Both the position numbers and the translations under genes were made by a program. This document shows, in pieces, positions 2 to 18,749 of a DNA stretch of 64,000 nucleotides (its first letter is position 1; each line of letters starts with the position of its first letter). The notes below the pieces were generated by a model. It saw only the letters and a program-made list of their open reading frames with translations. It searched no databases and was not told where the DNA came from. The DNA is from an uncultured Nitrospina sp. GTDB taxonomy: Bacteria; Nitrospinota; Nitrospinia; Nitrospinales; VA-1. The stretch is from NCBI GenBank assembly GCA_964344595.1, contig CAYFNV010000017.1:3660-67659 (forward strand), given 5' to 3'.

Positions 2-817
2 AAGGAATGCCTGATCACGCAAATGACCCTGGCGGCATTGAAAAAAAATGATCCGGCTCTCTGCGATAAAATTCCTGCTTCTTATGAGATATCTTTGAAT
101 AAGTGTAGGGATTATTTTATTCCTAAATTGGGTCATCTCGATTTTCAAAATGAAATTGAGCAGCAAGACTATTACAATATTCTGTTGCAAGGAACTGAAG
201 AAGGAAAGTTCCTGGATGTCTCAGAAAAAGCCGGAATTAAATTTGGTGAATGGGCCTGGAATGCCAAATTTGCGGACTTGGACAATGACGAGTGGCAGGA
301 TGTGTTTCTTGTTAATGGATCTTTTTTAACGCAGGAGTTTACAACAAATAAATTCTTCCGCAATTTGAAAGGGAAAACCTTTGCAACTTCACAAAAAGAA
401 TTTGGGTTGGAAGATTATGATCAGGCTTCAGCTTTCAACTTGATTGATTTCGATAATGACGGCGATCTGGATATAATTACCAATACTAACTATGGTCCTT
501 TCATTTTTTATATAAATAATGAAGCTGAAAACAACAGCCTGACTCTGAAACTCAGGGATGGCAAGGGAAACCGCTTTTGCATAGGCTGTAAGGTTGTTAT
601 TCGGTACGGTGAAGGCAAGAAAAACCATCAGATGAGGGAAATGAAAGCGAGCGGAGGTTATCGCTCGTTCGATGCACCCATCATTCACTTTGGGCTGGGA
701 ACCAATGAGCAGATCAATGAAATTGAGATCCGCTGGTCCGATGGTGTCAAATCGACAATTCCGGGTCCTTTTCCAACCAATCGCGAATATACGATTCGTA
801 GAGATTTGCCCTCATAA
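2..817 (+). CDS. CRTAC1/ASPIC-UnbV family protein with FG-GAP-like repeats, C-terminal part (5' end lies outside the window)
   Basis: The frame is open from base 2, upstream of the first listed Met at 23. FG-GAP/Ca-binding-like motifs are present (ADLDNDEWQDVFLVNG, DFDNDGDLDIITN). The C-terminus has an UnbV/ASPIC-like signature (ASGGYRSFDAPIIHFGLG...IEIRWSDG). Confidence 0.7.
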   Translation, partial: KECLITQMTLAALKKNDPALCDKIPASYEISLNKCRDYFIPKLGHLDFQNEIEQQDYYNILLQGTEEGKFLDVSEKAGIKFGEWAWNAKFADLDNDEWQDVFLVNGSFLTQEFTTNKFFRNLKGKTFATSQKEFGLEDYDQASAFNLIDFDNDGDLDIITNTNYGPFIFYINNEAENNSLTLKLRDGKGNRFCIGCKVVIRYGEGKKNHQMREMKASGGYRSFDAPIIHFGLGTNEQINEIEIRWSDGVKSTIPGPFPTNREYTIRRDLPS

Positions 818-857
818 TCAATTGGGCAAACTTAATATCTTTTGTGCTGTTAAAAAC

Positions 858-1553
858 TCAACTCTGCTTGGGAGGAAGTTCTACTCCTATAGACTCCAGA
901 TACCTGAGGTAAGATTGGAATTCTGGGGTTTTCCAAACTGCCGGAGAGATGGGGACTTCTATATCTTCTAAATCCTTGATCATGTTCTCATAGTTGCGCC
1001 TCATATATTCTGGCAGGCTGATGTCCACTGATTTTAGATATTTCAATACACCTGGGTCCATTAAAATATGCGGAGGTAGTGTGGAAATAGTCTTATTCGT
1101 GATCACATCCGGCGGATCGGTTCTCTTGTTATATGACCGCGATGGGGTTCTGTTCTCAGATACAATATTTGGTTTTCGTGCTGAACGTGGTTTTGAGATG
1201 AGTACTGGTGGACTGCCTGAGTTTTCCTGCAATATCCAAATTCGACTATTGACCAAATCATCGCTCCAGACTTCCACACGGGTATAATCTGTGAATAATC
1301 TGGTTATTGCAGTTTTCCAGTCATCTGCTTGAATATCAGCTGTCAGGTTTTTATTTCGGATGCCATAACCAAGGGTAAAAATAATTCCTGTCTTGTCTGT
1401 GATTTCCTGAGCGGCTTGTTGCAATTCTATAGAATCAAACTTTATGTGTATCCCATTCTTGTCCTGGTAGATTCCATCACCAGCTACTGCATAGGAAGTG
1501 GAGAAACCTAGGGTCACCAAGGTTATTAATGAAAAAACTATATAGTGTTTCAT
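858..1553 (-). CDS. Secreted hypothetical protein, STN/secretin-N0-like domain plus conserved C-terminal LPPHIL module (paralogue of 4547..5323)
   Basis: The ORF track gives 858..1598. The internal Met at 1553 starts a typical signal peptide (MKHYIVFSLITLVTLGFSTSYAVAG). Motifs shared with 4547..5323 are IxA(D/N)DWxTAxxxL, VEVWxDxLxxSRxWxL, LPPHILxxPGVL and ISPxxxxxPxF. Confidence 0.6.
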   Translation of the reverse strand: MKHYIVFSLITLVTLGFSTSYAVAGDGIYQDKNGIHIKFDSIELQQAAQEITDKTGIIFTLGYGIRNKNLTADIQADDWKTAITRLFTDYTRVEVWSDDLVNSRIWILQENSGSPPVLISKPRSARKPNIVSENRTPSRSYNKRTDPPDVITNKTISTLPPHILMDPGVLKYLKSVDISLPEYMRRNYENMIKDLEDIEVPISPAVWKTPEFQSYLRYLESIGVELPPKQS

Positions 1554-1761
1554 GACGTTCATACTTTTTATAAAACCAATGTGTTTATCATAAATCAAAT
1601 TTTATTGAAAAACAAAGCGCAGAACTTGAGCCATGGCTTTAAACATTTCCAGTTAATTGAGTTTTATGACAAATTATTCAGGTTTGTAAAAATTTTTCAG
1701 TTTAACTTTAGGTTTTGTTTTAAAATGAAGTTACAAAAAAATTATTGGTAAGGAGGTTTCT

Positions 1762-2145
1762 TTGAGTGCCCAGTCTTTGTTGAATGAGCTTTTAGAATGT
1801 CTTCCCATACGCGCTTATGGACGTGGAGCCGTGCTGACTCTGCTGCGCGAAATGGGGTTCCAGGTTAAAAATAAAACACCGCTTGAGGTGATTGATGTCT
1901 ATCGAGATGACAATTCAGGTGAGCTGGTCTGCAAATTGAGTCCCGATGGAAAAGGAGAATTCACCGCCGCGCTTACAAATTTGAAGCTTGATATTACCCA
2001 CCCGCTTTACCGAAAAGTCAAAAACTACCAGATTGAAGTTTCTGAAGCTTTAGGGAAACTTGATGTCGAAGACACGCGCCAGTCGAGTATTGATCAGGAA
2101 GACCGTGGAGGCTTCCGTGTTGGAAGTTTATATAAGAATAAGTAG
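1762..2145 (+). CDS. Hypothetical protein (127 aa)
   Basis: The ORF has a TTG start 6 nt downstream of an AAGGAGG Shine-Dalgarno at about 1750-1756. I recognised no family. Confidence 0.45.
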   Translation: MSAQSLLNELLECLPIRAYGRGAVLTLLREMGFQVKNKTPLEVIDVYRDDNSGELVCKLSPDGKGEFTAALTNLKLDITHPLYRKVKNYQIEVSEALGKLDVEDTRQSSIDQEDRGGFRVGSLYKNK

Positions 2146-2197
2146 CCCGCTTTGATTGCCATTGCAGTCGCTCGCGATGACGTTCTGAGGTGTTTAA

Positions 2198-3538
2198 CTA
2201 TGATTTTTCCGAGTTGATGAATTTTTTCAGGAAGGGGAACATGGCGCCACGTTTTTCGATCATCTCTTCGCGTGATTTTTTTACTACAGTTTCATCAATG
2301 ATACGGATGTCACGTTCGGCGGCATACTTCTCAATGCCTTTCACCACCATACCTCGCGCGAAAGATGGAATGCGTTCGAGCCGACTCTTGGCTTCCGGTG
2401 TCCATTGTGTTTGAAACTCGACTTCGAGTCCGAGTGTATCCTCGACTTTTAAGGTAATGGCCTTGCCGCCATATTTTCCCGGTTCGTAATCGCAGGAGGG
2501 ATCCGGATCCATATAATTTCCTGTTTCGGCAAAGGCGCGAGCCCTGCAGCCGGAACACAATGCGGAAAACTCACAGGTACCGCATTTACCATCCAGCCCT
2601 TTGCGGTCTCTCAACTCAATCATCAGCGGTGCATTTTCCCACAGGTCCTTAAAGCTTCTGGACTTTAAATTTCCCACAGACTCTTCGATGAAGGGGCAGG
2701 GTGTCAGATTGCCCTCTGGTGAAATGCGGCTGTAATGTGTGGCCGCCGGGCAGCCACCGGAGTAGGTGCGTGTGTAAACCGATTCGGGATCATTCTCATA
2801 AACAACGCGTTTGTATTGCGGTGCACATTTGGAGTTGATCATCAACTTGCCTTTATATTTCATCTGTTGCTCATAAAGCAGTTTCAAGGCTTCTTCATAA
2901 GCGGCGTTGGATATGTCAGTATTGCCTTGTCCACGCCCTGTGCAGACCAGGAAATATAAATTGAATGCAATGGCACCAATCTTTTCTGTGAACTCAACCA
3001 CTTCAGGAATTTCCTTATAGTTCATATCCGAGACGGACATCTGCACGAGAAAGTCAACACCGACTTCGTTCAGAATGTCAAAGGCTTCCATGGAAAGTTC
3101 CCAGGCTTTTTCTACTCCTCGAAACTTGTTGTGCTTGTCCGGATTCATAGAGTCAATGCTGATTCCCACGCCATGTGCTCCAGCGGCTTTTATTTTTTCT
3201 GCGTTGACACGGTTGATCATGGTGCCGTTGGTGCCTAGCACGACCATGAACTTTTTGTCGGCGGCATAACGAATGATTTCATAAATGTCAGGCCGTAGAA
3301 GAGGTTCGCCGCCTGTGAGAATGAGAAACGCGTTAGGGTTGACTTCCGCAATCTGGTCGATGACGCGAAAACATTCTTCGGTATTGAGTTCGTCCGTCTT
3401 GAGTCCGCCCCGAAACTCTGCATCAAGGTAGCAGTGGTCGCAATTGAGGTTGCACCGCTTGGTGAGGTTCCAGGATATTGAGTAGGCACGGAAATCCATT
3501 TTTTCCGGGCTAAACTCCAGTGTTGGGTTTGTTTCCAT
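2198..3538 (-). CDS. Radical SAM / SPASM-domain enzyme with C-terminal PCP_red-like domain (NirJ/AhbC/AhbD-like family)
   Basis: CNLNCDHC (CX3CX2C) cluster motif and TGGEPLLRPD near the N-terminus. SPASM-type Cys motifs GGCPAA...TPCPF and CGTCEFSALCSGCRARA. The C-terminal ~80 aa (QWTPEAKSRLERIPSFARGMVVKGIEKYAAERD) resembles the PF08369 domain. Confidence 0.85.
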   Translation of the reverse strand: METNPTLEFSPEKMDFRAYSISWNLTKRCNLNCDHCYLDAEFRGGLKTDELNTEECFRVIDQIAEVNPNAFLILTGGEPLLRPDIYEIIRYAADKKFMVVLGTNGTMINRVNAEKIKAAGAHGVGISIDSMNPDKHNKFRGVEKAWELSMEAFDILNEVGVDFLVQMSVSDMNYKEIPEVVEFTEKIGAIAFNLYFLVCTGRGQGNTDISNAAYEEALKLLYEQQMKYKGKLMINSKCAPQYKRVVYENDPESVYTRTYSGGCPAATHYSRISPEGNLTPCPFIEESVGNLKSRSFKDLWENAPLMIELRDRKGLDGKCGTCEFSALCSGCRARAFAETGNYMDPDPSCDYEPGKYGGKAITLKVEDTLGLEVEFQTQWTPEAKSRLERIPSFARGMVVKGIEKYAAERDIRIIDETVVKKSREEMIEKRGAMFPFLKKFINSEKS

Positions 3539-3728
3539 GTTAAATTAGTGGCCTGAGGGCCTGTTCCTGATTGTAAATAGTCTATAGTTGCAAGCTTTTA
3601 CCTATCATAGAAGGTTTCTCCCAATGAAACAAATATTTTACGAAAATCAGGTATTACAGTCCAACCTTGGGAATTCAATATTGAAGCGGATATTTTATGA
3701 AATACGGGCAGTGTGGGCGAATCACTCA

Positions 3729-4544
3729 GTGTCGAAATATAAAAATCGCGGGTTTCTGGTCCTGCTGACCCTTTTATGTATTTCTGCCTGCTCATCGGTA
3801 CCTGAAAATCCACAGGTAGGAGAAGAACGGGTTTTCAGAATCACTCATGCTGATTCTGCGGGTCGTATCGTCTCGGAAATTTGGACCCGGCGAAAGCTGG
3901 AATCTCAAGGAGTACGGGAAATCTCCAGTGAATATTTTGACCGGGCCATGCACACAAGGGATTCACGGTTTTCAACTATCTCCTTTGCCAGCTTGTTAAA
4001 GAAGTTTGCCATGAAACGCGGAGAGGACTCGGTGCTTTTAAATTGCTTTGATGACTATCAGGGCATTTTATCTCTTAATGATATTTACCGGTATGATTTG
4101 CGATTGGCCACAAGAATTCAATTCTCGGGTTCAAAGCCTGATTGGTTAAACCCTCTACTCATCCTGGTGCCTGATGGGAAACGCCCGCCTTTTCAGGAAC
4201 GGTTCATGACGGCCAACATTCGCGAGTTGAAGTTTGTCCGGCTCAAGAGTTATTACGCTCCTTTAGACAAAGCAGCAGGGTTTTCCAAAAGAGCCCGGGA
4301 GGGATTAAAAGTTTTTAAAGACAACTGTTTGTTCTGTCACTCTTTGAAAGGCAGGGGAGGCAATAAGGGTGTACGTCTGCTAGAGACCTACAGGCTTACA
4401 AATATGGCAGACCAAAGAAAGTTTATAACCGATTTTAAAAACTTCCACCATAAAGACAATGCTGATAAACAGGATGTCGAACAGTTTGTCACTCAGCAAA
4501 AACTTGAACGGGTCATCGACTACTTAAAGAACTTTAAGGGATAG
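3729..4544 (+). CDS. Putative c-type cytochrome lipoprotein (single CXXCH)
   Basis: Heme-binding motif CLFCH at the C-terminal third. The ORF track starts at 3588, but an in-frame GTG at 3729 gives a canonical lipoprotein signal (SKYKNRGFLVLLTLLCISAC, lipobox ISAC). The start remains uncertain (3588/3624/3729). Confidence 0.6.
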   Translation: MSKYKNRGFLVLLTLLCISACSSVPENPQVGEERVFRITHADSAGRIVSEIWTRRKLESQGVREISSEYFDRAMHTRDSRFSTISFASLLKKFAMKRGEDSVLLNCFDDYQGILSLNDIYRYDLRLATRIQFSGSKPDWLNPLLILVPDGKRPPFQERFMTANIRELKFVRLKSYYAPLDKAAGFSKRAREGLKVFKDNCLFCHSLKGRGGNKGVRLLETYRLTNMADQRKFITDFKNFHHKDNADKQDVEQFVTQQKLERVIDYLKNFKG

Positions 4545-4546
4545 GG

Positions 4547-5323
4547 TCAGGCTTTTGGGGCCAGGATTCCATTTGAATTAAGGAACTGCTTGAAAGTCGG
4601 GTCGTTGAGGATGTGTGGTGAGATCGGCATATTGGCTGGCAATCCTTCAAGGTTGGGACCGAACATTCTCTTCACGTTTTCAGGGAGCGCGATACCTTTT
4701 GATTTGAAGAAGGTCAATACCCCCGGCTCAAAAAGAATATGCGGGGGAAGATTCTCAATTTTAATTTGAGTATTGGCAACCGGTGCAGGAACTGCCGCGG
4801 CTGGGACCGGTGCAGGAGCCGGAGCTGAACGGAAACGAGGTTGACGTTGAACTGCTGCCCTGGTTTGCCGTGGCGCCCGGGCAGTTTCTGCCACTTCAAC
4901 ATTCCTTCCACCTGATAAAAGCCAGACCCTGCTGGTTGCCAGGTTGTCTGTCCAGACTTCTACACGGCTGAATCCTTTTAAAAGTTTGCGAACCGCTGTT
5001 TCCCAGTCATTAGCCTGAATACGGGCACTAAACGGAACGGTTTCAAGGGAAGGATCAACGGAAAATAAAATGCCGGTTTCGTCCTGAATATTTTTTAATA
5101 CATCCAGCAGAGTCAGGTCCTCAAACTGGAGACTGATCCCTTCAGGTTCTGTTTTGGATTTGTATACGGGATTGGGCGGAATACTTGGAGCGGGAGTGGG
5201 AACAACTTCAGGAGCCGGGAGTTGTTTCTGTTCTTTCAAATCAAGAAACCGCGCATCGGCAGACACCTGCCACAACACGAAACCGGTGCCAAGAACGATC
5301 CCTGTCTGGATAAAACGCTTCAT
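4547..5323 (-). CDS. Secreted hypothetical protein, STN/secretin-N0-like domain, Pro/Ala-rich linker, C-terminal LPPHIL module (paralogue of 858..1553)
   Basis: GGAGGA RBS upstream of ATG 5323 and an N-terminal signal peptide (MKRFIQTGIVLGTGFVLWQVSA). Contains ISLQFEDLTLLDVLKNIQDETGILF...IQANDWETAVRKLL...VEVWTDNLATSRVWLL, a PAPAPVPAAAVPAPV linker, and LPPHILFEPGVL. Confidence 0.65.
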   Translation of the reverse strand: MKRFIQTGIVLGTGFVLWQVSADARFLDLKEQKQLPAPEVVPTPAPSIPPNPVYKSKTEPEGISLQFEDLTLLDVLKNIQDETGILFSVDPSLETVPFSARIQANDWETAVRKLLKGFSRVEVWTDNLATSRVWLLSGGRNVEVAETARAPRQTRAAVQRQPRFRSAPAPAPVPAAAVPAPVANTQIKIENLPPHILFEPGVLTFFKSKGIALPENVKRMFGPNLEGLPANMPISPHILNDPTFKQFLNSNGILAPKA

Positions 5324-5475
5324 CCCGATCCTCCACTACCGAGAAAATTTTCTAATCCGAATTATAGACAAAAACCACTAAAAAAGATAGCTATATCAGG
5401 TCATTGATAATGGATCATTAGCAAAACAACAGATAAATCGCCATTTAAGCCTGCGCTTTTTAGTATCCCAAAAGG

Positions 5476-5508
5476 TGAAAAAAGTATTGAAAGCCGGGGC
5501 CAATACTT
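5476..5508 (-). terminator. Rho-independent terminator downstream of the first collagen-like gene
   Basis: An 8-bp perfect stem (AAGTATTG 5482-5489 / CAATACTT 5501-5508) is followed on the minus strand by a T-run (plus-strand A-run 5478-5481). Confidence 0.6.
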
Positions 5509-5538
5509 CTTCAAGTATTGACTCTGGCTTTTCAATAT

Positions 5539-7566
5539 TCAGTTGGTCTTATACCAGACTCCCAGATCGACAATTTGTGGATTGTAAATCCCACAGAAGT
5601 CGTCTCTGCATTGGCTGGTACCATAAGTCCCGACCCGGCATTGATAGCTATAGCCGATGTTGCAATAGGTATTATTGCCTATTGTTCCACCATACCCGGA
5701 GAGGAAGTCATGGCCTCCTCCAAAGGTGGGGCCGTAGCTACTGTTGTCGTACTGTTGGTGGATGCTTGAATGTTGCCCCGGTGAACTGTGTTTAAAGTTG
5801 TTGGTCAGTGAAAACAGGAAACCGTTTGAGTTCCCGGTATAGTTACCTGCACTCGTCCAAGGCACAGCCGCGTAGCCACCAATTTTCCTGCCAGTGCTCA
5901 AAGTTGCAACCATGAAAGTCTCCCCCTTATTGTCGCACTGGTTGTGGAAGGTTGAAGTGTTGGATCCATCGGTACTGAGACGGTAACACTCTGTCCACTG
6001 TTGACCTGGTGTCCCAAGCCAGGTGTTGATCTGATCGACATCTGACTGGGTGAGTAATGGCGGTGGAGGCGGCGGTGTCGCCGTGTCAAAGTCATCCACA
6101 TATTCAAGCCCAGAAGGTAATACTAATGTGTCATCCGTGATTCCCAGCATGACTGCACGGTATTGTAAGCTGCTAATGTTTTGCGGTCGTGCTGAACCGG
6201 AAACGAAGATGACGGTGCTGGTTTCTTCAGCAGGTATAACAAGGTTAACGATATGTTTATGGGTCGCCTGACTATTAGTGTGTTGCCAAACATCCGCACC
6301 GTTAACCGCAATGCTGGCTTTTTCACCCCACCCTGAATATGCAGTCTGGTGAGTATGCACTGTCCAGGTTATATCGGACGATGTAGTATTCTTGACCCTG
6401 AAAAGAGCGGCAGCATGCTTTCCGGTAGTGGATGAATACATAGTATACTGCTCAGCCCAAACCAGGGCATTTTTGTCCGCATATCCCTTTTTGGTGAAAA
6501 GGTTGCGTATCTTATCAAAATTTTGACCCATCATACCTGCAGTGCCATTTGAATCACCCCATACATTAGGAGCTACACCGCCAAAAAGATTGCTGTCGTT
6601 ATTAGCATACCAGCCACCTGTTTGATCATAATCCATCCAGACTGCCCAGCGATAGATAGCACCTGTGTGGGAATCTCCTGGGTCACCTTTAGGACCTTGG
6701 GGGCCTGTATCACCTTTTGGTCCTTGAGGACCTGTCGCACCCGTCGCACCGGTTGCTCCTGCTAATCCGGTTGCGCCGGTTGCACCCGTGTCACCTTTTG
6801 GACCCTGTGGTCCCGTTGCGCCCGTTGCACCCGTGTCACCTTTTGGACCCTGTGGTCCCGTCGCGCCGGTTGCACCGGTATTACCTTTAGGTCCTTGTGG
6901 TCCCGTTGCGCCCGTTGCACCCGTGTCACCTTTAGGTCCCTGTGGTCCCGTTGCACCAACTGCACCGGTATCACCTTTTGGACCCTGTGGTCCCGTTGCG
7001 CCGGTTGCACCCGTGTCACCTTGCGGTCCCTGTGGCCCGGTTGCGCCAACTGCACCGGTATCACCTTTCGGTCCCTGTGGTCCGGTAGCGCCCGTTGCGC
7101 CGGTGTCACCCTTTGGTCCCTGTGGCCCGGTTGCACCGACTGCACCGGTGTCACCCTGCGGACCCTGTGGTCCGGTTGCACCGACTGCACCCGTGTCACC
7201 CTGCGGTCCCTGTGGTCCGGTAGCGCCTGTTGCACCTGTGTCACCCTGCGGTCCCTGAGGACCCGTTGCGCCAACTGCACCGGTTGGACCTTGTGGACCG
7301 GTATCGCCTTTTGGTCCGGGGGTCAGTTCAATATTGGCGAGTTCCTGTTCCAAGGCATCAATCTCTACCTGGAGAGCGTTGACCTTTTGTCGAAGTCCTC
7401 TTTTGCGCCGGTCATCGTCATCATCCTTATCTTTGTCTTTATCTTTCTTTTTTTGCGCAAAGGCTTGGCTGGAAAATACAGGGTCAGCAATCAACACATT
7501 ACTGACCAGATTAAAGATAAAAAACGAGACTGTGAATAGCGATACTGCTACAGGTAGGCGGCGCAT
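5539..7566 (-). CDS. Secreted collagen-like triple-helix repeat protein with beta-rich middle domain and C-terminal TLDc-like domain (675 aa)
   Basis: GGGGAG RBS. MRR plus a long hydrophobic leader ending AFA-QKK, then a K/D-rich stretch and a heptad segment [25 protein letters not shown]. Uninterrupted Gly-X-Y runs from aa 84 to 298. A PPPPPP linker follows. The C-terminus carries [14 protein letters not shown]...IGGYAAVPW...NGFLFSL...[11 protein letters not shown]...VDLGVWY. Confidence 0.9.
6673..7317 (-). repeat. Collagen Gly-X-Y coding tract built from about 11 tandem near-identical 45-bp (15-aa) units
   Basis: The unit GDTGA(T/V)GATGPQGP(Q/K) repeats back to back. The 45-nt periodicity is visible directly, e.g. 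6788-6832 vs 6833-6877. Confidence 0.9.
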
Positions 7567-7872
7567 AATATTTCTCCCCGATAAGAATTTAAAAGGCGCT
7601 TTATATAGTGGAAAGAGTTTGAATTTTTACTCTTCCTATCATGCGTTATGTGCTTATTTTCAGAAATCGTATTGTTAAGAAAAAATAGGGAGTACTAAAT
7701 CCTACTAAATATAAAGAAAAGCAATTTCAACAAGCGTAAATATATACTGTAAATATGCAGAAAACAACCCTGGACAACTCTAAATTTAGTAGATGTTGCT
7801 GAATTGTAACAATCTACAGAAAGTATATTGGAAAAAGGATATTTGTTTGGAAATTAATACATCAAGACTCTT

Positions 7873-8811
7873 TCAGGTTTTATTTTTTCCCATGGCCGCA
7901 TGGATATTTTTAAAGATTGATAGCCCTGATTTTGATCCGGGTTCAAGGTCCAGATAAGTGCGGGCAGCTGTTTCCGCCTGTTCAAACTTTTTCAGATAAT
8001 AAAAGACATAGGCTTTATTGAGGTAAAGCCTTGCAGGAATTTTATTCTGGGAAGGATGGTTCTTATATAACTGTTCGGCTTTATCATAAACTTCTTTGGC
8101 TTTCAAAAAATTTCCCATTCTCATATAGACTCCACCGAGGTTGAGATGGTTGACAGGGAAAGAAGGGTCAAGACGAATCGCTTCTTTGTAGGCGGAGACA
8201 GCTGCTGGCATATTTCCTCGTCGACTGTAAATGATCCCCATCTTGCTTTGAGCTTGAGACATAAATTTGGGAGAGGGGTTGGACTGCATCAATCCCTGAA
8301 TACTTTCAAACGCCTTATCAAAGTTTAACTCCATTAAATAATGGTGGCTGAGGTTTTGCCATGCACGGGTCTTTCCCGGTGCCTTATTAACCGTGTCCTG
8401 CCATAGAGCGATGTTTGACCGGTGCGTTGCGTTCCGGTCGATCAGCAAAACGGTATGAAGTGCCAGAATCGTGAGAAGCCCAACGGTTACTGTATGGCGA
8501 ATGGTTTTAGATTGAGAGACGAATAAAGAAGTCGCACCTGAAGCCATGAGCAAAAAAACTCCAAAAGACGGGATGTATAAGTTTCGTTCGCTCAGCAGGT
8601 TCAGGTCAATCGATTTCCCAAGACGGGGTATAAAACTGTTGCTAGGTGCTATGGTTAACAAAAACCATAAACTGCAAAAGACAATCCATTTTGCATGCCT
8701 TGGAAAACACCTGGCGGCACCCACCGTTAGAATAATTATTACCAGAAGTGGCCATGCCATCAATGCAGGTTGGGGGAAGAAGCCTTCAGGGAAGTTATAG
8801 TCAAACGTCAA
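7873..8811 (-). CDS. TMTC-like membrane/TPR protein, C-terminal half (4 TM segments + TPR repeats); probably the distal part of a split gene
   Basis: Hydrophobic N-terminal segments with SERNLYIPSFGVFLL (the family motif aeRxlYlPsiG), followed by TPR-like repeats (AWQNLSHHYLMELNFDKAFESIQ, GIIYSRRGNMPAAVSAYKEAIRLDP, LGGVYMRMGNFLKAKEVYDKA). The TTG start is only the first start codon after a stop in this frame. Confidence 0.65.
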   Translation of the reverse strand: MTFDYNFPEGFFPQPALMAWPLLVIIILTVGAARCFPRHAKWIVFCSLWFLLTIAPSNSFIPRLGKSIDLNLLSERNLYIPSFGVFLLMASGATSLFVSQSKTIRHTVTVGLLTILALHTVLLIDRNATHRSNIALWQDTVNKAPGKTRAWQNLSHHYLMELNFDKAFESIQGLMQSNPSPKFMSQAQSKMGIIYSRRGNMPAAVSAYKEAIRLDPSFPVNHLNLGGVYMRMGNFLKAKEVYDKAEQLYKNHPSQNKIPARLYLNKAYVFYYLKKFEQAETAARTYLDLEPGSKSGLSIFKNIHAAMGKNKT

Positions 8812-8846
8812 CCCTATGGGAAATAGTAGTAAGTGCAGTCCATGCC

Positions 8847-9623
8847 CTATGATTGGCTTTGTTGCAGGGCATGATAAAAATCAATTTTTCCCCACCATTT
8901 AATAACCATCGTTGTTATAACCGGAACATTTAAAATGGCAATCGTTCCACAGGCAAGCAGGGGAAGATAAAAGTAATGGAAACGGGTTTTACGGTCACAC
9001 CATTGATCCCCATTCATGAAACAGAAATCGTATAACAGGTAAATGGCAGGGAGGGAGAGGCTGACCTCTTTACTGAAAAACGCCGCTATGAATAGAAGAA
9101 TACAAATTAAATAGCAAATCAGGCGTGATGCTTTAGTCCTTTCCCGAAGCCCCGCGATTATAAAAAACAAAAACGATGAGAAATAGAACAACCCCGCCAG
9201 CCCTGAAGTCCGCCCTGATATATAAGACACGGTTTCGGTGTGGACCGGGCTCAATGCAAAGAACAAGGTGGTGGTCACGGAAATGGGAGTGGCCACCTTC
9301 CTCTCCCACTCAGTTCCCCTTTGAAGGGTTATATGAACAATGAAAAAGATGATGAGGCTTGTTAAAAAATGCAGGGAGATATTGAACACGTGGTAGCCGA
9401 ACGGGTCCAGTTGTCCCAGTTTCTTGTTGATGGCAAAGCTCAGGAAAAACAGGTGCCGGTATTTGGGGGGGAAGGGATCGAAAAACTTCTCATCGCTTTG
9501 GGAAATGACCGTGCTGTCATCAAGGGTAAAGGGAGATTTTAGCGTGTTGCCATAAGCCAGCGCGACAACCAGCAGCAATAGGGCACCAAATGCAACAACC
9601 TGCCTGCGGGATAAGTCCTCCAT
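8847..9623 (-). CDS. TMTC-like / DUF1736-type (GT-C, PMT-related) membrane protein, N-terminal half
   Basis: YGNTLKSPFTLDDSTVI, GYHVFNISLHFLTSL, LSPVHTETVSYISGRTSGLAGLFYF and FSKEVSLSLPAIYLL match the N-terminal membrane domain of bacterial TMTC-like TPR proteins. The ORF ends 35 nt before the next ORF, which is in another frame. Confidence 0.65.
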   Translation of the reverse strand: MEDLSRRQVVAFGALLLLVVALAYGNTLKSPFTLDDSTVISQSDEKFFDPFPPKYRHLFFLSFAINKKLGQLDPFGYHVFNISLHFLTSLIIFFIVHITLQRGTEWERKVATPISVTTTLFFALSPVHTETVSYISGRTSGLAGLFYFSSFLFFIIAGLRERTKASRLICYLICILLFIAAFFSKEVSLSLPAIYLLYDFCFMNGDQWCDRKTRFHYFYLPLLACGTIAILNVPVITTMVIKWWGKIDFYHALQQSQS

Positions 9624-9680
9624 AGATATGATTCTACCAGCCAGTGTGGCGTTGGGCTTAATTTAAAAAGTCTTTTGCGC

Positions 9681-9717
9681 AAATAAAAATGGCCCACGGA
9701 GATGTACCGTGGGCCAT
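9681..9717 (-). terminator. Rho-independent terminator downstream of the second collagen-like gene
   Basis: An 11-bp perfect stem (ATGGCCCACGG 9689-9699 / CCGTGGGCCAT 9707-9717) with a 7-nt loop, followed on the minus strand by TTTTATTT. Confidence 0.7.
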
Positions 9718-9747
9718 CACTATAAAAAAGATTTAGTCGGTAAGCCT

Positions 9748-11097
9748 TTAAAAGTTATTTATACAAATCGCAAAGACTCTATAAAACTTTACCAAACCTG
9801 ATTTAGGTGTAAAACGAACTGTCCACGATTGGGGATCGCTGGGGCTTGAAATAATACCCGAGGGGCCGCTAAAATGAACGGTTATATTTGCATCCCCACC
9901 GTGATTAATACCCCCGCCTGTTACTACTTTACCAGCAGGACAATCAGCTCTTACCTCATGAGTGGATCCATCTGACAATGTAGTAGATTGTACAAATACT
10001 TGTTCCCATCCCAGGGATGGAATTATAGGAACCTCTGGAACAGCCGTGAAGTCAAATGATGAAACGCCATTGCTGTTCAATAGGTGGAAGCGGTGAGCAC
10101 CTTGACCGCTGGCAATAATACTAATTGGGACACGCACAGTAATGGTGTTAATGCTGGCTACCAATACATTCCCGCCGCCCGAAGCCTGTTCCGAATGGGT
10201 GTTCAACAGGGTATTGAAATGCGTCACATTGGGTGCTGTGACTCCATCAACAGAAAGTCCAGAGCCATCAATCAGGAACGAAATGTGAGAAGCAGGTAAT
10301 GGAACACAGGTCTCGTTGCCAACCGAGTCGGTGGTACAACTGAGTTCAGGAGGCAGTTGGATGATACGCCTGATCTCAACACCATCTATTTCATCGTTCC
10401 CACCATCAGAACCTGCCGGCCCTTGAGGTCCTTGTGGACCTGTTGCACCCGTGTCACCTTGAATTCCCTGCAGGCCTTGCGGACCCGTTGCACCGGTTGG
10501 ACCTTGCGGACCTTGTGGTCCTGCCGGGCCTGCCAGTCCGGTATCGCCTGGATCGCCCTTGTCACCTTTATCACCTTGGGCACCGTCGGCACCTGCTGGA
10601 CCTGTTTTACCTTGAGGTCCTGCCGGGCCTGCCGGTCCGGTATCGCCTGGATCGCCCTTATCACCTTTATCACCTTGGGCACCGTCGGCACCTGCTGGAC
10701 CTGTTTTACCCTGAGGTCCTGCCGGGCCTGCCGGTCCGGTATCACCTGGGTCGCCCTTGTCACCTTTGGCTCCGTCAGCACCCGGTAAACCTTGCGGACC
10801 GGGGGTCAGTTCAATATCTGCGATTTCCTGTCCCAGGGCATCAACCTCTTCCTCAAGAGCATTGACTTTTTGCCGAAGTCCGTTGCTGCGCCGGCTATCA
10901 TCTTTATCCTTATCGTCATCACGTTTTCTTTTTTTCTTTTTCTTCGCTTTCTTTTTTAGTTTGATTTTTGCGTCCTGTTTTTTCTGTGCAAAGGCCATAC
11001 TAGAAAAAGTGGGATCAGCAGTCAGCATATTGCTGACCAGACTTAAAAGGAAGAATAAAACCGTGAACAGTGCGATTGATAATTGTTGGCGGCGCAT
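9748..11097 (-). CDS. Secreted collagen-like triple-helix repeat protein with IPT/TIG-like and Cys-bracketed beta C-terminal domains (449 aa)
   Basis: GGAGAAAGG RBS. The leader is [40 protein letters not shown], followed by a poly-K/D stretch and [25 protein letters not shown]. Gly-X-Y runs from aa 100 to 233. The C-terminal ~215 aa is unrelated to that of 5539..7566. Confidence 0.9.
10510..10795 (-). repeat. About 2.7 tandem copies of a 99-bp (33-aa) unit inside the collagen tract
   Basis: TCCTGCCGGGCC recurs at 10519, 10618 and 10717 with near-identical intervening sequence. The protein unit is [33 protein letters not shown]. Confidence 0.85.
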
Positions 11098-11450: not shown

Positions 11451-11846
11451 ATGTCTTTACCGGTTGTAGCTGTATTTGCCCTGGGCACAGGGGTAGAACT
11501 TTATGGTTTGAAGTATGTGAGTGATGTGATCAGCATTCTCAACACGGTATCCTTAATCATGTTCACTTTTCTGGTGGGTATTGTTGTCAGCCGCAGTTAC
11601 GGTGCTGAGGTCTTTGAAAAAATGCAGAGGCAGTTGAAGTCACGGGAAGTCCCCGGCAACGAGGCCCTGAACGGTGCGGTGATGGGGGTTGCCAGTATGT
11701 TACTCATAACTCCGGGAGTTGTGACGGACATAATTGGTCTCCTGATCATGACTCCGCTCACTCGCGGGCTGTTCATAAAAATTGCTGCGGATATCACACG
11801 AGATAGAATTCAATCCGGTCAACCCTACTTCTTCTTCAAGGACTAA
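11451..11846 (+). CDS. fxsA: FxsA family membrane protein (UPF0716)
   Basis: 131 aa, with N-terminal TM helices and the family hallmark LLITPGVVTDIIGLLIMTPLTRG. Confidence 0.7.
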   Translation: MSLPVVAVFALGTGVELYGLKYVSDVISILNTVSLIMFTFLVGIVVSRSYGAEVFEKMQRQLKSREVPGNEALNGAVMGVASMLLITPGVVTDIIGLLIMTPLTRGLFIKIAADITRDRIQSGQPYFFFKD

Positions 11847-16313: not shown

Positions 16314-16949
16314 TTGCCATTGATACGGCATTTTTCCTATTACCTTACCCGGCTTTTAATAAAAACACCGATAGTGCCAAATCAGGTTACCACGTTGTCT
16401 TTATTATTTGGGTTGGCCTCTGGAGCAGCATGTTTGAAAGGGACTTATAGCTATACACTTCTAGGCGCGTTTTTTTTGCTCATATGCTATGTGCTCGATA
16501 ATTGTGATGGAGAAATTGCCCGCTTAAAAAATATGTGTAGCCATTTTGGCATGAGGTACGACACGTTTGTAGATTGGGTTGTCCACACTGTTTTCTTTGT
16601 TTGTCTGGGCTGGGGTGCGACTGCGGCCATGGGACAGGAATGGTGGCTGTGGGTGGGTATCGTAACAGGGCTGGGGGGCACCATTAATTATGGTATAGAA
16701 CTATATCAAAACAAAACCCAGCTTCATGCCAGCCAATTGCCTGAAAAAGAAACGATGAAAAAAGATGACGATACGGATATAGATCGGTTTGTATTGAACG
16801 CCCGTATGGTACGTAGTGACTTTTGTTTCATCGTGTTGTTTTTAAGCTTGGGAGGGGTGCTTTGGTATCTTCTTCTTCCCGCTGCTATTGGTGCTCAGGC
16901 TTATTGGTGTCTGCAATTTACCCGAAGCGCACGTCGCTGGCACGTATAA
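16314..16949 (+). CDS. CDP-alcohol phosphatidyltransferase family protein (small, 211 aa)
   Basis: Exact family motif DG-x2-AR-x8-G-x3-D-x3-D in DGEIARLKNMCSHFGMRYDTFVD, with multiple TM segments. The TTG start is uncertain. Confidence 0.8.
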   Translation: MPLIRHFSYYLTRLLIKTPIVPNQVTTLSLLFGLASGAACLKGTYSYTLLGAFFLLICYVLDNCDGEIARLKNMCSHFGMRYDTFVDWVVHTVFFVCLGWGATAAMGQEWWLWVGIVTGLGGTINYGIELYQNKTQLHASQLPEKETMKKDDDTDIDRFVLNARMVRSDFCFIVLFLSLGGVLWYLLLPAAIGAQAYWCLQFTRSARRWHV

Positions 16950-16954
16950 CAATC

Positions 16955-17962: not shown

Positions 17963-18025
17963 GGTTTATGTATTTCAGGTTTTGCAAAGTAACGGATAGT
18001 TTGCCTAAACTAGGTAGTTGATGAT

Positions 18026-18742
18026 ATGAAATGCTTGATCATTATAGCTGGAAAGGGTAGCCGCTTAAAGTCTATGTCTGACAGTAAGCCCCTGACTTCT
18101 TTGTTAGAGGTTCCTCTTGTTGAACGAGTTATTCGTTCTGCATTAGAAGCCGGGGTGGATGGATTTTATGCGGTAGTTGGATATCGAGGTGAGCTGGTCC
18201 GATCTTTCCTTGAAGATTTAGCTGGCAAAATTAGTGTTCCCATAACTGTGATAGATAATACTGACTGGGAAAAGGCTAATGGGCTGTCAGTGCTCAAGGC
18301 GAAAGATTTTTTAAGTGAGCCTTTTTTACTATTAATGGGAGATCATCTTTTTGATCCTGGTATTGTCCGAAAAATGATTGATTATCCCTTGGATGGTGAT
18401 GAGCTTGTCCTTGCTGTCGATCACAATTTAAAAAACCCAATGGTTGATTTGGATGATGTGACTCGAGTTATGGAGAATAAAGGCCTGATTCAGAGTATAG
18501 GCAAAGGAATAGGTGAATACAACTGTTTTGATACTGGAATTTTCCTATGTACTCCAGCGTTATTTTCGGCGCTGGAGAAATCTGCGCGGGACTCTGGTGA
18601 TGACTCACTATCGGGGGGTGTCCAGGTTTTGGCTAAGGAAGAAAAAGTTTGCGTTATGCCGATAGACGGTCTGTTCTGGATTGATATAGATGACCCTGAA
18701 CGGTACAGGCAGGCTGAAAACTATTTGATTAATAATTCCTGA
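18026..18742 (+). CDS. Nucleotidyltransferase (NTP_transferase family), candidate inositol-1-phosphate cytidylyltransferase
   Basis: Intact N-terminal signature IIIAGKGSRLK (GxG[ST]R[LM]), LLMGDHLF, and C-terminal FWIDIDDPERY. It lies in a cluster with MIPS and CDP-alcohol transferases. The substrate assignment is inference. Confidence 0.75.
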   Translation: MKCLIIIAGKGSRLKSMSDSKPLTSLLEVPLVERVIRSALEAGVDGFYAVVGYRGELVRSFLEDLAGKISVPITVIDNTDWEKANGLSVLKAKDFLSEPFLLLMGDHLFDPGIVRKMIDYPLDGDELVLAVDHNLKNPMVDLDDVTRVMENKGLIQSIGKGIGEYNCFDTGIFLCTPALFSALEKSARDSGDDSLSGGVQVLAKEEKVCVMPIDGLFWIDIDDPERYRQAENYLINNS

Positions 18743-18749
18743 AAACATT

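What the first reader, a model, noticed from the sequence alone, without database searches (positions are those of the whole stretch)
2..11097. Locus-level co-occurrence of extracellular-matrix-type domains (CRTAC1-like, collagen x2, TLDc-like, TMTC-like) with redox/radical enzymes
Within 11 kb the window encodes:
- an ASPIC/UnbV FG-GAP protein of the CRTAC1 family;
- two collagen-like stalk proteins;
- a TLDc-like head;
- a TMTC-like GT-C/TPR membrane protein lying between the two collagen genes on the same strand;
- two paralogous STN-like secreted proteins;
- a radical SAM/SPASM enzyme;
- a c-type cytochrome lipoprotein.

Nearly every product has a signal peptide, lipobox or TM anchor. In animals, TMTC enzymes are protein O-mannosyltransferases. 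In Bacillus, collagen-like BclA is heavily glycosylated. A working hypothesis is therefore a dedicated envelope-fibre system, with the collagen-like fibres as structural components and the TMTC-like protein as their glycosylating or assembly factor. Gene adjacency is the only evidence for functional linkage.
Basis: inference. Interest (0 to 1): 0.7.

Follow-up and report, generated by a model that had tools for sequence, protein, structure and literature searches.

The report
Collagen-like fibre genes with dedicated glycosyltransferase
In a marine nitrite-oxidising bacterium (Nitrospinota), two secreted collagen-like fibre genes flank a broken TMTC-type membrane glycosyltransferase gene; this fibre-plus-enzyme pair recurs across related genomes, while the neighbouring redox and radical SAM genes are unrelated conserved backbone.

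Summary
The 11 kb is not one system, though.

- **Backbone.** It runs fxsA | N0/STN-like protein, cytochrome c lipoprotein, AhbD/NirJ-like radical SAM, 127-aa protein. Nitrospinota relatives keep this order with no collagen or TMTC-like gene.
- **Cassette.** About 6 kb (5539-11097) lies between fxsA and the STN-like gene. It holds two Sec-exported collagen-like fibre proteins with a shared N-terminal module and different heads, flanking a TMTC-clade GT-C/TPR gene.
- **Pairing.** All nine lineages with a TMTC-like orthologue (at least 51% identity) have a leader-bearing fibre gene beside it, in four genomic contexts. None of 76 more distant TMTC-like loci does.
- **Best reading.** The fibre is the substrate and the enzyme is its dedicated periplasmic O-glycosyltransferase, the same logic as pilA-tfpW in Pseudomonas. 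Glycosylation itself is inferred.
- **Pseudogene.** Here the TMTC-like gene has a one-base deletion (CGA to CA near 8854/8855). It is identical in four assemblies, so the gene is a recent pseudogene or a split gene.

The ASPIC/UnbV, cytochrome and radical SAM genes are incidental neighbours. Verdict: a new variant of a known kind, of moderate interest.

The parts
2..817 (+). C-terminal 271 aa of a 1052-aa ASPIC/UnbV FG-GAP protein. The full protein has an N-terminal ArsP_1 permease domain. Not part of the fibre module.
   Evidence: Pfam UnbV_ASPIC 57 bits and FG-GAP_3. Full gene on the source contig, L001 12722-15880. Absent from this position in every relative examined; five loci carry a type II secretion operon there.
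858..1562 (-). STN/N0-like secreted protein 2, a lineage-specific paralogue of the 4547-5323 gene.
   Evidence: 34% identity, E = 1e-35 to STN-like-1. Gene call of 234 aa. The proteins at this position in relatives are not homologous to it; they resemble GspC/PilP.
1762..2145 (+). Conserved 127-aa protein of unknown function with no signal peptide. Backbone gene.
   Evidence: Found next to the radical SAM gene in L005, L011, L012, L101 and L103. No Pfam or PHROG hit.
2198..3538 (-). Radical SAM/SPASM enzyme of the AhbD/NirJ clade with a C-terminal PCP_red domain. Backbone gene.
   Evidence: Pfam Radical_SAM, SPASM and PCP_red. NCBIfam NirJ2 316 bits and AhbD 303 bits, both below the 500-bit cut-offs. 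Conserved in relatives with and without the cassette (E near 1e-300).
3624..4544 (+). c-type cytochrome lipoprotein. Backbone gene.
   Evidence: Pfam Cytochrom_C 23.8 bits. CLFCH motif and ISAC lipobox read from the translation. Conserved next to the radical SAM gene in all relatives.
4547..5323 (-). STN/N0-like periplasmic protein 1: signal peptide, N0-like alpha/beta domain, Pro-rich disordered linker, C-terminal helical repeats. Family seen only in Nitrospinota. Backbone gene.
   Evidence: 149 homologues; every one that carries an organism name is from Nitrospinota. AF2 pLDDT 86-94 for residues 61-140. Foldseek top hits are PilQ, InvG and GspD N0 domains and PupR/FpvA STN domains, at E = 0.1-1. 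Present in cassette-free relatives.
5539..7566 (-). Fibre protein 1 (675 aa): Sec leader, K/D-rich segment, coiled coil, 72 GXY triplets (residues 84-299, nt 6670-7317), 'mid' head domain (nt 6082-6678), poly-Pro linker, TLDc head (nt 5554-6057).
   Evidence: Pfam Collagen and TLD. Leader HMM E = 1e-37. Thr occupies the Y position in 36 of 72 triplets. Tandem 45-nt and 135-nt DNA repeats. Mid and TLD modules are widespread in marine bacteria.
7873..9623 (-). TMTC-clade GT-C/TPR glycosyltransferase gene disrupted by a one-base deletion. The TM half is ORF 8847-9623 and the remaining TM helices plus TPRs are ORF 7873-8811.
   Evidence: Two frames. A TM-only profile aligns the whole TM domain of animal TMTC4-like proteins, E = 1e-31 to 1e-33. 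DD motif conserved: D35 invariant, D36 nearly invariant across the wide alignment. AF2 model of orthologue P0121 has pLDDT 88.6, about 11 TM helices plus TPR.
8853..8856 (-). Frameshift site. The orthologue consensus ...ALQQxRIIGHG... reads here as AGC CAA TCA TAG, which fits loss of the G of an Arg CGA codon. It is not in a homopolymer.
   Evidence: Sequence, alignment to 7 orthologues, and identity in 4 assemblies from runs ERR2281801, -03, -04 and -05.
9688..9718 (-). Terminator-like hairpin (12 pairs, 8 G-C, then a T-rich tail) between fibre gene 2 and the TMTC-like gene.
9748..11097 (-). Fibre protein 2 (449 aa): Sec leader, K/D-rich segment, coiled coil, 45 GXY triplets (nt 10396-10800), beta-rich head ending C-I-N-N-F (nt 9751-10392).
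   Evidence: Pfam Collagen. The N-terminal 85-100 aa are homologous to fibre 1, and the 5' DNA is 71-77% identical over about 280 nt. The head is homologous to fibre heads next to TMTC-like genes in L011, L012, L014, L101 and L103-L105.
11451..11846 (+). fxsA, the conserved left boundary of the cassette slot.
   Evidence: Pfam FxsA in the gene table. fxsA lies about 240 nt (L005) or 170 nt (L007) from the STN-like gene in cassette-free relatives.

Best explanation
**Shown.** The region is a composite of two things.

- A Nitrospinota chromosomal backbone: fxsA on one side; STN/N0-like protein, cytochrome c lipoprotein, AhbD/NirJ-like radical SAM and a 127-aa protein on the other.
- A variable cassette of about 6 kb carried between them.

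The cassette encodes two paralogous secreted fibre proteins. Each has a Sec signal peptide ending AxA|Q, a lysine/aspartate-rich segment, a short coiled coil, a collagen-like GXY stalk and a swappable C-terminal head. Between the two genes lies a TMTC-clade GT-C glycosyltransferase gene. Its orthologues have about 11 TM helices, a DD motif in the first periplasmic loop and a C-terminal TPR domain.

The fibre gene plus TMTC-like gene is a conserved two-gene module in one Nitrospinota subfamily.

**Inferred mechanism.**

1. Protomers cross the inner membrane by Sec.
2. The TPR domain of the TMTC-like enzyme captures them in the periplasm.
3. The GT-C domain transfers a sugar from a polyprenyl-phosphate donor to Ser/Thr. 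Half of the Y positions in fibre 1 are Thr.
4. The coiled coil nucleates trimerisation and the triple helix forms.
5. The fibre is exported and displayed on the surface with its head outward, possibly by the type II secretion system as for Legionella Lcl.

The genetic logic is that of pilA-tfpW in Pseudomonas aeruginosa.

**In this population** the enzyme gene carries a fixed one-base deletion. The fibres are therefore either unmodified or served by a paralogue. The ASPIC/UnbV, cytochrome c, radical SAM and STN-like genes are neighbours, not components.
For: **Composite structure.** L005-L008 keep fxsA, the STN-like gene, cytochrome c and radical SAM with only about 170-240 nt between fxsA and the STN-like gene.

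**Pairing.** A leader-bearing fibre gene lies beside every TMTC-like orthologue of at least 51% identity.

- In the fxsA slot: the window, L011/L020/L103, L012, L013/L021, L101 and L104. L105, a 1.9-kb fragment, shows the pair only.
- In three other contexts: L022 (divergent orientation), L100 and L102.
- None of 26 Nitrospinota paralogue loci (437 kb) and none of 50 loci from other phyla (746 kb) has one.
- Reciprocal search with the fibre-2 head found 3 loci, all with a TMTC-like gene directly downstream.

**Enzyme identity.**

- Database hits to animal TMTC4-like proteins and to PMT_2/PMT-annotated bacterial proteins.
- A TM-only profile aligns over the full TM domain.
- Conserved D35-D36: D35 invariant, D36 nearly invariant in the wide alignment.
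- A confident model with about 11 TM helices plus TPR.

**Fibre features**.

**Precedents.**

- TfpW has 11 TM helices, a DDX motif in loop 1 and a periplasmic TPR domain. Its gene lies immediately downstream of its substrate gene pilA (10.1101/2020.04.19.049825).
- The GT-C enzyme PgfM1 is required for glycosylation of the adhesins Cnm and WapA in S. mutans; Cnm is encoded in the same Pgf cluster (PMC11092751).
- Lcl is a collagen-like surface adhesin that depends on type II secretion (PMC11162425).

**Frameshift**.
Against: - No glycosylation data exist, and no TMTC-like enzyme from a prokaryote has a known substrate.
- The cassette has no gene for a polyprenyl-phosphate sugar synthase or flippase. 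None was found among the 20 larger ORFs scanned in the rest of the window.
- Thr-rich GXY is not universal. The L012 fibre is (GAD/GAP)n with no Thr in the stalk, so the acceptor site is undefined.
- The enzyme gene is broken here while both fibre genes are intact. This argues against an obligate partnership, or else indicates a very recent loss.
- Six of the nine lineages share the same fxsA slot, so part of the pairing could be inherited synteny.
- Pfam DUF1736 was not detected, and Foldseek against the PDB returned only TPR matches.
Confidence: 0.55

Rival explanations
1. The fibre and TMTC-like genes are functionally linked, but the TMTC-like protein does not glycosylate the fibre. It might modify an envelope lipid or polysaccharide, as ArnT does, to create a docking site for the basic N-terminus of the fibre. 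Or it might act through its TPR domain as a periplasmic chaperone or assembly factor.
For: ArnT is the closest solved structural relative of TMTC N-domains (PMC7801869). The fibres carry a very basic K-rich N-terminal segment. No common Ser/Thr-rich acceptor is shared by all the fibres. The same conserved pairing supports this reading too.
Against: The catalytic DD motif and the other family-invariant residues are conserved, so a purely non-enzymatic role is unlikely. The characterised GT-C enzymes that have periplasmic or lumenal TPR domains (TMTC1-4, TfpW) act on proteins.
Confidence: 0.2
2. There is no functional link. The fxsA/STN-like junction is a hot spot for variable genes, and the collagen-like and TMTC-like genes travel together only through shared descent or hitch-hiking.
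For: Six of the nine lineages have the pair in the same slot. The cassette shows presence/absence polymorphism. The enzyme gene is a pseudogene here while the fibre genes are intact.
Against: The pair also occurs in three unrelated contexts, once in divergent orientation (L022, L100, L102). The fibre partners differ greatly in stalk and head, yet the TMTC-like gene stays adjacent. None of 76 other TMTC-like loci has a collagen-like neighbour.
Confidence: 0.12
3. One reading: all nine genes in 2-11097 (ASPIC/UnbV, STN-like x2, radical SAM, cytochrome c, collagen x2, TMTC-like, 127-aa) form one envelope-fibre system.
For: Physical adjacency in this window. The STN-like gene lies directly downstream of the cassette in six lineages, and a truncated copy lies near the pair in L102.
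Against: The STN-like, cytochrome c and radical SAM group is fully conserved without the cassette. The pair occurs without that group. ASPIC/UnbV is unique to this genome at that position. STN-like-2 has no counterpart in the relatives.
Confidence: 0.06
4. The collagen-like genes are remnants of phage tail-fibre genes or of a tailocin, not cellular surface fibres.
For: PHROG tail-fibre families hit both proteins at E down to 1e-65, and some hits extend past the collagen region. An integrase fragment lies next to the pair in L100.
Against: The hits lie mostly on the GXY repeats. Both proteins have Sec signal peptides. No other phage genes are nearby. The fibre-2 head has no relative in 2.9 million viral contigs, and the mid-domain family has one.
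Confidence: 0.04

Closest known systems
Pseudomonas aeruginosa group IV pilin glycosylation: pilA-tfpW (TfpW, a GT-C arabinofuranosyl/oligosaccharyl transferase)
   Same: [quoted passage not shown] The genetic logic matches too: the enzyme gene lies immediately next to the gene of the surface-fibre subunit it modifies, across species.
   Different: The substrate here would be a Sec-exported collagen-like trimer, not a type IV pilin. The enzyme belongs to the TMTC/PMT-like clade by sequence; its relationship to TfpW was not tested. No sugar-donor genes are clustered. The activity is untested.
Metazoan TMTC1-4 protein O-mannosyltransferases
   Same: Homologous N-terminal GT-C domain: the profile aligns across the whole TM domain, including the F-x-F-D-D, H-x-x-N-I-x-L-H, P-V-H-T-E and S-K-E motifs. 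A TPR domain sits on the non-cytoplasmic side. The targets are adhesion-type extracellular proteins (PMC7801869).
   Different: Only 21-27% identical. Pfam DUF1736 was not detected. The protein is shorter, at about 590 aa. The donor in a bacterium would be an undecaprenyl-type lipid, not dolichol. TMTCs modify folded cadherin domains, not collagen stalks. The prokaryotic homologues are uncharacterised.
Legionella pneumophila Lcl (collagen-like adhesin exported by type II secretion)
   Same: A Gram-negative secreted protein with signal peptide, N-terminal region, GXY repeats and C-terminal head, displayed on the cell surface. It is the best NCBIfam hit for fibre 1, at 155 bits.
   Different: The score is far below the equivalog cut-off of 500 and comes from the GXY repeats. 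The heads differ: TLDc and a C-x-N-N-F head here, DUF1566 in Lcl. The Lcl paper never mentions glycosylation (0 occurrences) and reports no dedicated glycosyltransferase. Dependence on type II secretion is untested here.
Bacillus BclA and other Thr-rich bacterial collagen-like proteins (from established knowledge, not tested here)
   Same: A GXT-rich collagen stalk with a globular C-terminal head. The BclA threonines are O-glycosylated. Fibre 1 has Thr at 36 of 72 Y positions.
   Different: BclA is modified by cytoplasmic, nucleotide-sugar-dependent enzymes in a Gram-positive spore. Here the candidate enzyme is a periplasmic GT-C.
Streptococcus mutans Pgf cluster (GT-C enzyme PgfM1 and the adhesins Cnm and WapA)
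   Same: A GT-C enzyme acting outside the cytoplasm that is required for O-glycosylation of surface adhesins, at least one of which (Cnm) is encoded in the same gene cluster.
   Different: A Gram-positive organism with a different GT-C family. That cluster also encodes the GT-A lipid-sugar synthase and an epimerase, both absent from the cassette here.

Membership tests
TMTC / PMT-like GT-C glycosyltransferases | N-terminal multi-pass GT-C domain homologous over its full length to TMTC N-domains | tested here: met
   A TM-only HMM of the Nitrospinota orthologues aligns positions 10-402 to residues 35-477 of animal TMTC4-like proteins, E = 1e-31 to 1e-33. Whole-database hits at E = 3e-11 and 5e-8.
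TMTC / PMT-like GT-C glycosyltransferases | Acidic DD/DE catalytic motif in the first extracytoplasmic loop | tested here: met
   F-T-L-D-D at residues 32-36. D35 and D36 are both invariant in the 26-sequence Nitrospinota alignment. In the 35-sequence alignment that includes animal TMTC4-like proteins, D35 is invariant and D36 nearly invariant.
TMTC / PMT-like GT-C glycosyltransferases | 11 TM helices, with the C-terminal TPR domain on the non-cytoplasmic side | tested here: met
   The AF2 model of orthologue P0121 (pLDDT 88.6) shows about 11 long helices and then TPR hairpins. Pfam finds TPR_1, TPR_2 and TPR_8. The topology is inferred from the odd helix count and the basic N-terminus.
TMTC / PMT-like GT-C glycosyltransferases | Pfam DUF1736 (PF08409) loop between TM7 and TM8 | tested here: not met
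   Not reported by hmmscan even at E up to 10. The corresponding L-L-L-F-P-x-x-L-T-F-D-Y segment does align to the animal proteins in the profile alignment.
TMTC / PMT-like GT-C glycosyltransferases | Intact reading frame in this genome | tested here: not met
   A one-base deletion splits the gene, identically in 4 assemblies.
TMTC / PMT-like GT-C glycosyltransferases | Protein O-glycosyl (mannosyl) transferase activity using a polyprenyl-phosphate sugar | not testable with these tools
   No biochemical data. No donor-synthesis gene found among the window ORFs scanned.
Bacterial collagen-like surface proteins (Scl / Lcl / BclA type) | Long uninterrupted Gly-X-Y repeat region | tested here: met
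   72 and 45 triplets. Pfam Collagen scores 111 and 74 bits.
Bacterial collagen-like surface proteins (Scl / Lcl / BclA type) | Export signal plus a non-collagenous trimerisation or head domain | tested here: met
   Signal peptides ending AxA|Q in all family members. A heptad-like segment lies before the stalk. Heads are TLDc and a conserved beta-rich head. Trimerisation itself is inferred.
Bacterial collagen-like surface proteins (Scl / Lcl / BclA type) | Equivalog membership in Lcl, SclA or SclB (NCBIfam cut-offs; LPXTG anchor for Scl) | tested here: not met
   Fibre 1 scores 155, 133 and 126 bits against cut-offs of 500, 325 and 400; fibre 2 scores lower. No LPXTG motif appears in either translation.
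TLDc domain | Pfam PF07534 above the gathering score | tested here: met
   80.3 bits against 24.5, residues 504-671. Collagen+TLD architectures recur in Nitrospina and a Desulfobacteraceae MAG among the named hits, and in many unnamed metagenome proteins.
STN / secretin N0 domain | Sequence match to Pfam STN, or fold match to N0/STN domains | tested here: inconclusive
   No Pfam hit even at E up to 10. The AF2 domain is confident. The Foldseek top hits are PilQ, InvG and GspD N0 domains and PupR/FpvA STN domains, but only at E = 0.1-1, rmsd 3-5 A over about 75 columns.
AhbD / NirJ radical SAM (haem-type tetrapyrrole maturation) | Radical SAM + SPASM domains, and an equivalog-level score | tested here: inconclusive
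   The domains are present. The best models are NirJ2 (316 bits) and AhbD (303 bits), both below the 500-bit cut-offs. It belongs to the clade, but its function is not assigned.
ASPIC/UnbV FG-GAP (CRTAC1-type) proteins | UnbV_ASPIC domain with FG-GAP repeats | tested here: met
   57 and 46 bits. The full-length protein also carries an ArsP_1 permease domain.

The most novel reading that the evidence does not exclude
Prokaryotic TMTC-clade GT-C/TPR enzymes are dedicated O-glycosyltransferases of collagen-like adhesive fibres. This would give the uncharacterised bacterial TMTC-like proteins their first substrate class. It would also suggest that the metazoan TMTC pathway, which O-mannosylates cadherins, descends from an ancient 'adhesin fibre plus adjacent GT-C' module. 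In hydroxyproline-free bacterial collagen, glycosylated Thr at the Y position could stabilise the triple helix in cold sea water.
Probability: 0.3. Interest if true: 0.7.

Novelty: new variant of a known kind. Interest (0 to 1): 0.5.

Why it matters
- **A testable substrate.** Bacterial homologues of animal TMTC O-mannosyltransferases are numerous, but my literature searches found no described substrate or function for them. A conserved, substrate-like neighbour gives a direct experiment: co-express a fibre with an intact orthologue and look for a mass shift.
- **Ecology.** Nitrospinota are the main nitrite oxidisers of the ocean (from established knowledge). A presence/absence-variable cassette of surface fibres with swappable heads is a plausible source of strain-level differences in particle attachment, or in recognition by phages and grazers.
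- **A natural comparison.** The pseudogenised enzyme in this population allows modified and unmodified fibres to be compared in nature.
- **A caution about method.** The finding also shows that co-occurrence in a single window over-groups genes. Most of the 'system' here is unrelated backbone.

Tried and rejected
**Searches that gave nothing useful**

- Pfam on the TM half and on the repaired full protein found only TPRs.
- phmmer of the TM domain against PDB sequences found nothing. The profile search returned only TPR proteins.
- Foldseek of the TMTC-like model against the PDB returned only TPR matches.
- The project accession PRJEB17505 was not found in the paper library.
- Literature searches found no paper linking TMTC-like enzymes to bacterial collagen-like proteins or to Nitrospina.

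**Ideas tested and dropped**

- *Programmed frameshifting.* The shift maps to a deleted base inside an Arg codon. There is no slippery heptamer between the two stop codons.
- *The D-P-x-F-S-S motif after the leader's hydrophobic core as a juxtamembrane acceptor site.* It is absent from the L022 and L013-TLD leaders, and all leaders end in a normal AxA|Q cleavage site.
- *GXT as a universal acceptor.* The L012 stalk has no Thr.
- *Phage origin of the heads.* Viral contigs gave 0, 0 and 1 hits.

**A correction to my own earlier reading**

I first took the 237-259-aa proteins upstream of gspE in relatives for orthologues of STN-like-2. BLASTP shows they are unrelated, and they resemble GspC/PilP.

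Full report
**1. Source and gene content**

The window is part of a 135.8-kb metagenome contig (ENA ERZ930069, project PRJEB17505). Homologues of its genes that carry an organism name are from Nitrospinota/Nitrospinaceae.

| Coordinates | Product |
|---|---|
| 2-817 (+) | ASPIC/UnbV FG-GAP fragment |
| 858-1598 (-) and 4547-5323 (-) | Two paralogous secreted proteins, 34% identical, E = 1e-35 |
| 1762-2145 (+) | 127-aa protein |
| 2198-3538 (-) | Radical SAM/SPASM/PCP_red enzyme; best models NirJ2 and AhbD, 316 and 303 bits against 500-bit cut-offs |
| 3588-4544 (+) | c-type cytochrome with a lipobox |
| 5539-7566 (-) | Collagen + TLDc protein, 675 aa |
| 9748-11097 (-) | Collagen-like protein, 449 aa |

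Between the two collagen genes, on the same strand, lies a membrane/TPR gene. It is split into two ORFs in different frames: 8847-9623 and 7873-8811.

**2. The TMTC-like gene is real but broken**

Pfam sees only TPRs in it, even after I repaired the frame. PDB sequence searches see nothing or only TPR proteins.

A database search with the repaired TM domain was more informative.

- It found intact 577-600-aa orthologues in Nitrospinota, 51-66% identical over 100% of the query.
- At lower scores it found bacterial proteins carrying PMT_2 or PMT domains.
- It also found animal TMTC4-like proteins, at E = 3e-11 and 5e-8.

A profile built from the TM domain alone aligns across the entire TM domain of those animal proteins, at E = 1e-31 to 1e-33. 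The aligned motifs include F-x-F-D-D, H-x-x-N-I-x-L-H, P-V-H-T-E and S-K-E. D35 and D36 are both invariant in the 26-sequence Nitrospinota alignment. In the 35-sequence alignment that includes the animal proteins, D35 is invariant and D36 nearly so.

The AlphaFold model of the closest intact orthologue has pLDDT 88.6. It shows about 11 long helices followed by TPR hairpins. These are the defining features of TMTCs given in PMC7801869, except that the Pfam DUF1736 model does not fire.

Alignment to seven orthologues places the frame break at ...ALQQS(R)IIGHG.... The window reads AGC CAA TCA TAG. One extra base, CGA, would restore the consensus. The site is not a homopolymer. The same sequence occurs in four assemblies from four sequencing runs. 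No slippery site lies between the two stop codons. It is therefore a genuine one-base deletion. The deletion is recent, because all family-invariant residues are still present.

**3. The region is a composite**

Relatives that carry the STN-like gene have a conserved order: TsaD, HDOD protein, FAD oxidoreductase, methyltransferase, FxsA, then STN-like protein, cytochrome c, radical SAM.

In L005/L006 and L007/L008, fxsA and the STN-like gene are only about 170-240 nt apart. There is no collagen or TMTC-like gene between them. The 6-kb block at 5539-11097 is therefore an accessory cassette set into a conserved slot.

The rest of the window is the same housekeeping backbone.

ASPIC/UnbV is not conserved at its position. 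In L005, L011, L012 and L101 the 127-aa gene is followed by a GspC-like gene and a gspE-F-G-H... type II secretion operon. STN-like-2 has no counterpart there.

**4. The fibre-TMTC pair is a conserved module**

Every locus with a TMTC-like orthologue of at least 51% identity has, directly beside it, one or two genes for secreted proteins that share the N-terminal module of the window's collagen proteins.

| Locus | Arrangement |
|---|---|
| L011/L020/L103 | 379-aa and 658-aa fibres, then TMTC-like |
| L012 | 586-aa (GAD/GAP)n fibre, then TMTC-like |
| L013/L021 | Fibre, TMTC-like, then a 294-aa collagen+TLD protein |
| L101 | Fibre, then TMTC-like (fxsA slot) |
| L104 | Fibre, then TMTC-like, STN-like, cytochrome c, radical SAM (contig starts inside the fibre gene) |
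| L105 | Fibre, then TMTC-like (1.9-kb fragment) |
| L022 | Two fibres divergent from the TMTC-like gene; unrelated context |
| L100 | Among two-component genes, next to an integrase fragment |
| L102 | Next to NADH dehydrogenase genes |

Sources.

That makes nine lineages and four genomic contexts. The control is clean. None of 26 Nitrospinota paralogue loci (34-44% identity, 437 kb) carries a leader, head or GXY ORF. None of 50 TMTC-like loci from other phyla (746 kb) does either.

A reciprocal search of metagenome contigs with the fibre-2 head found three loci. All have a TMTC-like gene immediately downstream.

The lineages are related, so the Fisher p of 2e-12 is not a true probability. 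The persistence of the pair across contexts, orientations and very different fibre bodies is the real argument.

**5. Anatomy of the fibres**

All have a Sec signal peptide ending AxA|Q. Most continue with a K/D-rich segment and a coiled coil of the type GLxKKVxALQxxxxxLQxQ(I/V)DxIELTPGP. A repeat stalk follows, either GXY or A-V-T-x-x-K-L repeats.

The heads are swappable:

- a beta-rich head ending C-(I/V)-N-(N/D)-F, or a related variant ending C-L-(T/S)-(V/I)-P;
- TLDc;
- a 'mid' domain that normally ends proteins with GLEYVDDLDTATGGWEQ;
- S-V-S-G-G repeats;
- Kelch-like repeats.

Fibre 1 has two heads: the mid domain, a poly-Pro linker, then TLDc. Its stalk has Thr at 36 of 72 Y positions.

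The two genes in the window are 71-77% identical at the DNA level over their first 280 nt or so. The mid and TLD modules occur in marine bacteria of other groups, for example a SAR86 MAG, a Neolewinella MAG and a Desulfobacteraceae MAG. They are almost absent from 2.9 million viral contigs. PHROG tail-fibre hits lie mainly on the GXY repeats.

A strong terminator-like hairpin separates fibre gene 2 from the TMTC-like gene.

**6. The STN-like proteins**

The family was seen only in Nitrospinota. The model has a confident alpha/beta domain, a disordered Pro-rich linker and C-terminal helical repeats.

Foldseek's top matches are secretin N0 domains (PilQ, InvG, GspD) and STN signalling domains (PupR, FpvA). 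E-values are only 0.1-1. The label is plausible but not established.

Because the gene is retained without the cassette, I treat it as backbone. A truncated copy near the pair in L102 is the only hint of any link.

**7. Mechanism**

*Shown:* the composite structure, the conserved pairing, the GT-C/TMTC homology and the frameshift.

*Inferred:* the TMTC-like enzyme O-glycosylates the adjacent fibre in the periplasm, using a polyprenyl-phosphate sugar. The TPR domain selects the substrate.

The closest precedent is P. aeruginosa TfpW. It has 11 TM helices, a DDX motif in loop 1 and a periplasmic TPR domain. Its gene lies immediately downstream of pilA, whose product it glycosylates. Other precedents are the GT-C enzyme PgfM1, which is required for glycosylation of the S. 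mutans adhesins Cnm and WapA, and Legionella Lcl, a collagen-like surface adhesin that depends on type II secretion.

Weak points:

- no donor-synthesis gene is nearby;
- no acceptor motif is shared by all the fibres;
- the enzyme is inactivated here while the fibres are intact.

Three genomes in the sample carry a second, more distant TMTC-like paralogue (L022 with L028, L020 with L048, L021 with L033). A paralogue might compensate for the broken copy here.

**8. Verdict**

The wider 'system' does not.
- I found no report of this pairing.
- It is best classed as a new variant of a known kind: a surface-fibre gene with an adjacent dedicated GT-C/TPR glycosyltransferase.
- Interest is moderate, at 0.5. 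It offers a concrete, testable first substrate for bacterial TMTC-like enzymes, but rests entirely on gene context.

Noticed in passing
L001 12722-15880 (continues window 2-817 beyond the left edge): The ASPIC/UnbV FG-GAP protein is 1052 aa and has an N-terminal ArsP_1 'predicted permease' membrane domain. That is an unusual fusion for this family. It occupies the position where five related loci have a type II secretion operon.
   Followed up: partly
L005 13706-20519; L011 15794-21776; L012 9670-15700; L101 11218-15054: In relatives, the 127-aa gene is followed by a GspC/PilP-like gene and then gspE-F-G-H-I-J-K. This operon is missing from the corresponding place in the window's genome, where STN-like-2 and ASPIC/UnbV sit instead.
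   Followed up: partly
L101 1877-3101; L013 7391-9911; L022 3489-5940: Fibre genes next to intact TMTC-like genes are themselves split by frameshifts in three other loci. In L101 the cause is an extra A in a short A-run of the lysine-rich segment. This could be assembly error in repeats, or on/off switching of the fibres. The window's fibre 2 has a 7-A run in the same segment (10930-10945).
   Followed up: partly
window 6082-6678 and 5554-6057: Fibre 1 has two heads. The 'mid' domain belongs to a widespread marine family that normally ends proteins with GLEYVDDLDTATGGWEQ. Here it is followed by a PPPPPP linker and a TLDc domain.
   Followed up: partly
window 16823-21636: A cluster of an LPG_synthase_TM protein, a CDP-alcohol phosphatidyltransferase and a myo-inositol-1-phosphate synthase, conserved in relatives (L005). 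It suggests synthesis of an inositol-containing phospholipid, which is uncommon in bacteria.
   Followed up: no
window 24194-25603: A Maf/MptE-like protein of the flagellin glycosyltransferase type, which has a small TPR protein beside it in relatives. In L007 and L013, fliD-fliS lie just beyond the radical SAM gene.
   Followed up: no
L102 7197-7766: A truncated STN-like gene (189 aa, missing most of the N0-like domain and the linker) lies two genes upstream of a fibre-TMTC pair in a non-fxsA context. It is the only hint that the STN-like family may be connected to the cassette.
   Followed up: partly
L100 11942-12568: A 208-aa phage-integrase-family fragment lies directly downstream of a fibre-TMTC pair in a non-fxsA context. 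It hints at how the module moves.
   Followed up: no
window 2198-4544: The AhbD/NirJ-like radical SAM enzyme has a C-terminal PCP_red domain and is always divergently paired with the cytochrome c lipoprotein in Nitrospinota. This could be a dedicated haem or tetrapyrrole-modifying pair. Its function is not assigned.
   Followed up: no
window 29729-34534: A 1601-aa hybrid sensor kinase (HBM, HAMP, GAF, PAS, HisKA, HATPase, two receiver domains, Hpt), followed by an HD-GYP-type response regulator at 28582-29694.
   Followed up: no
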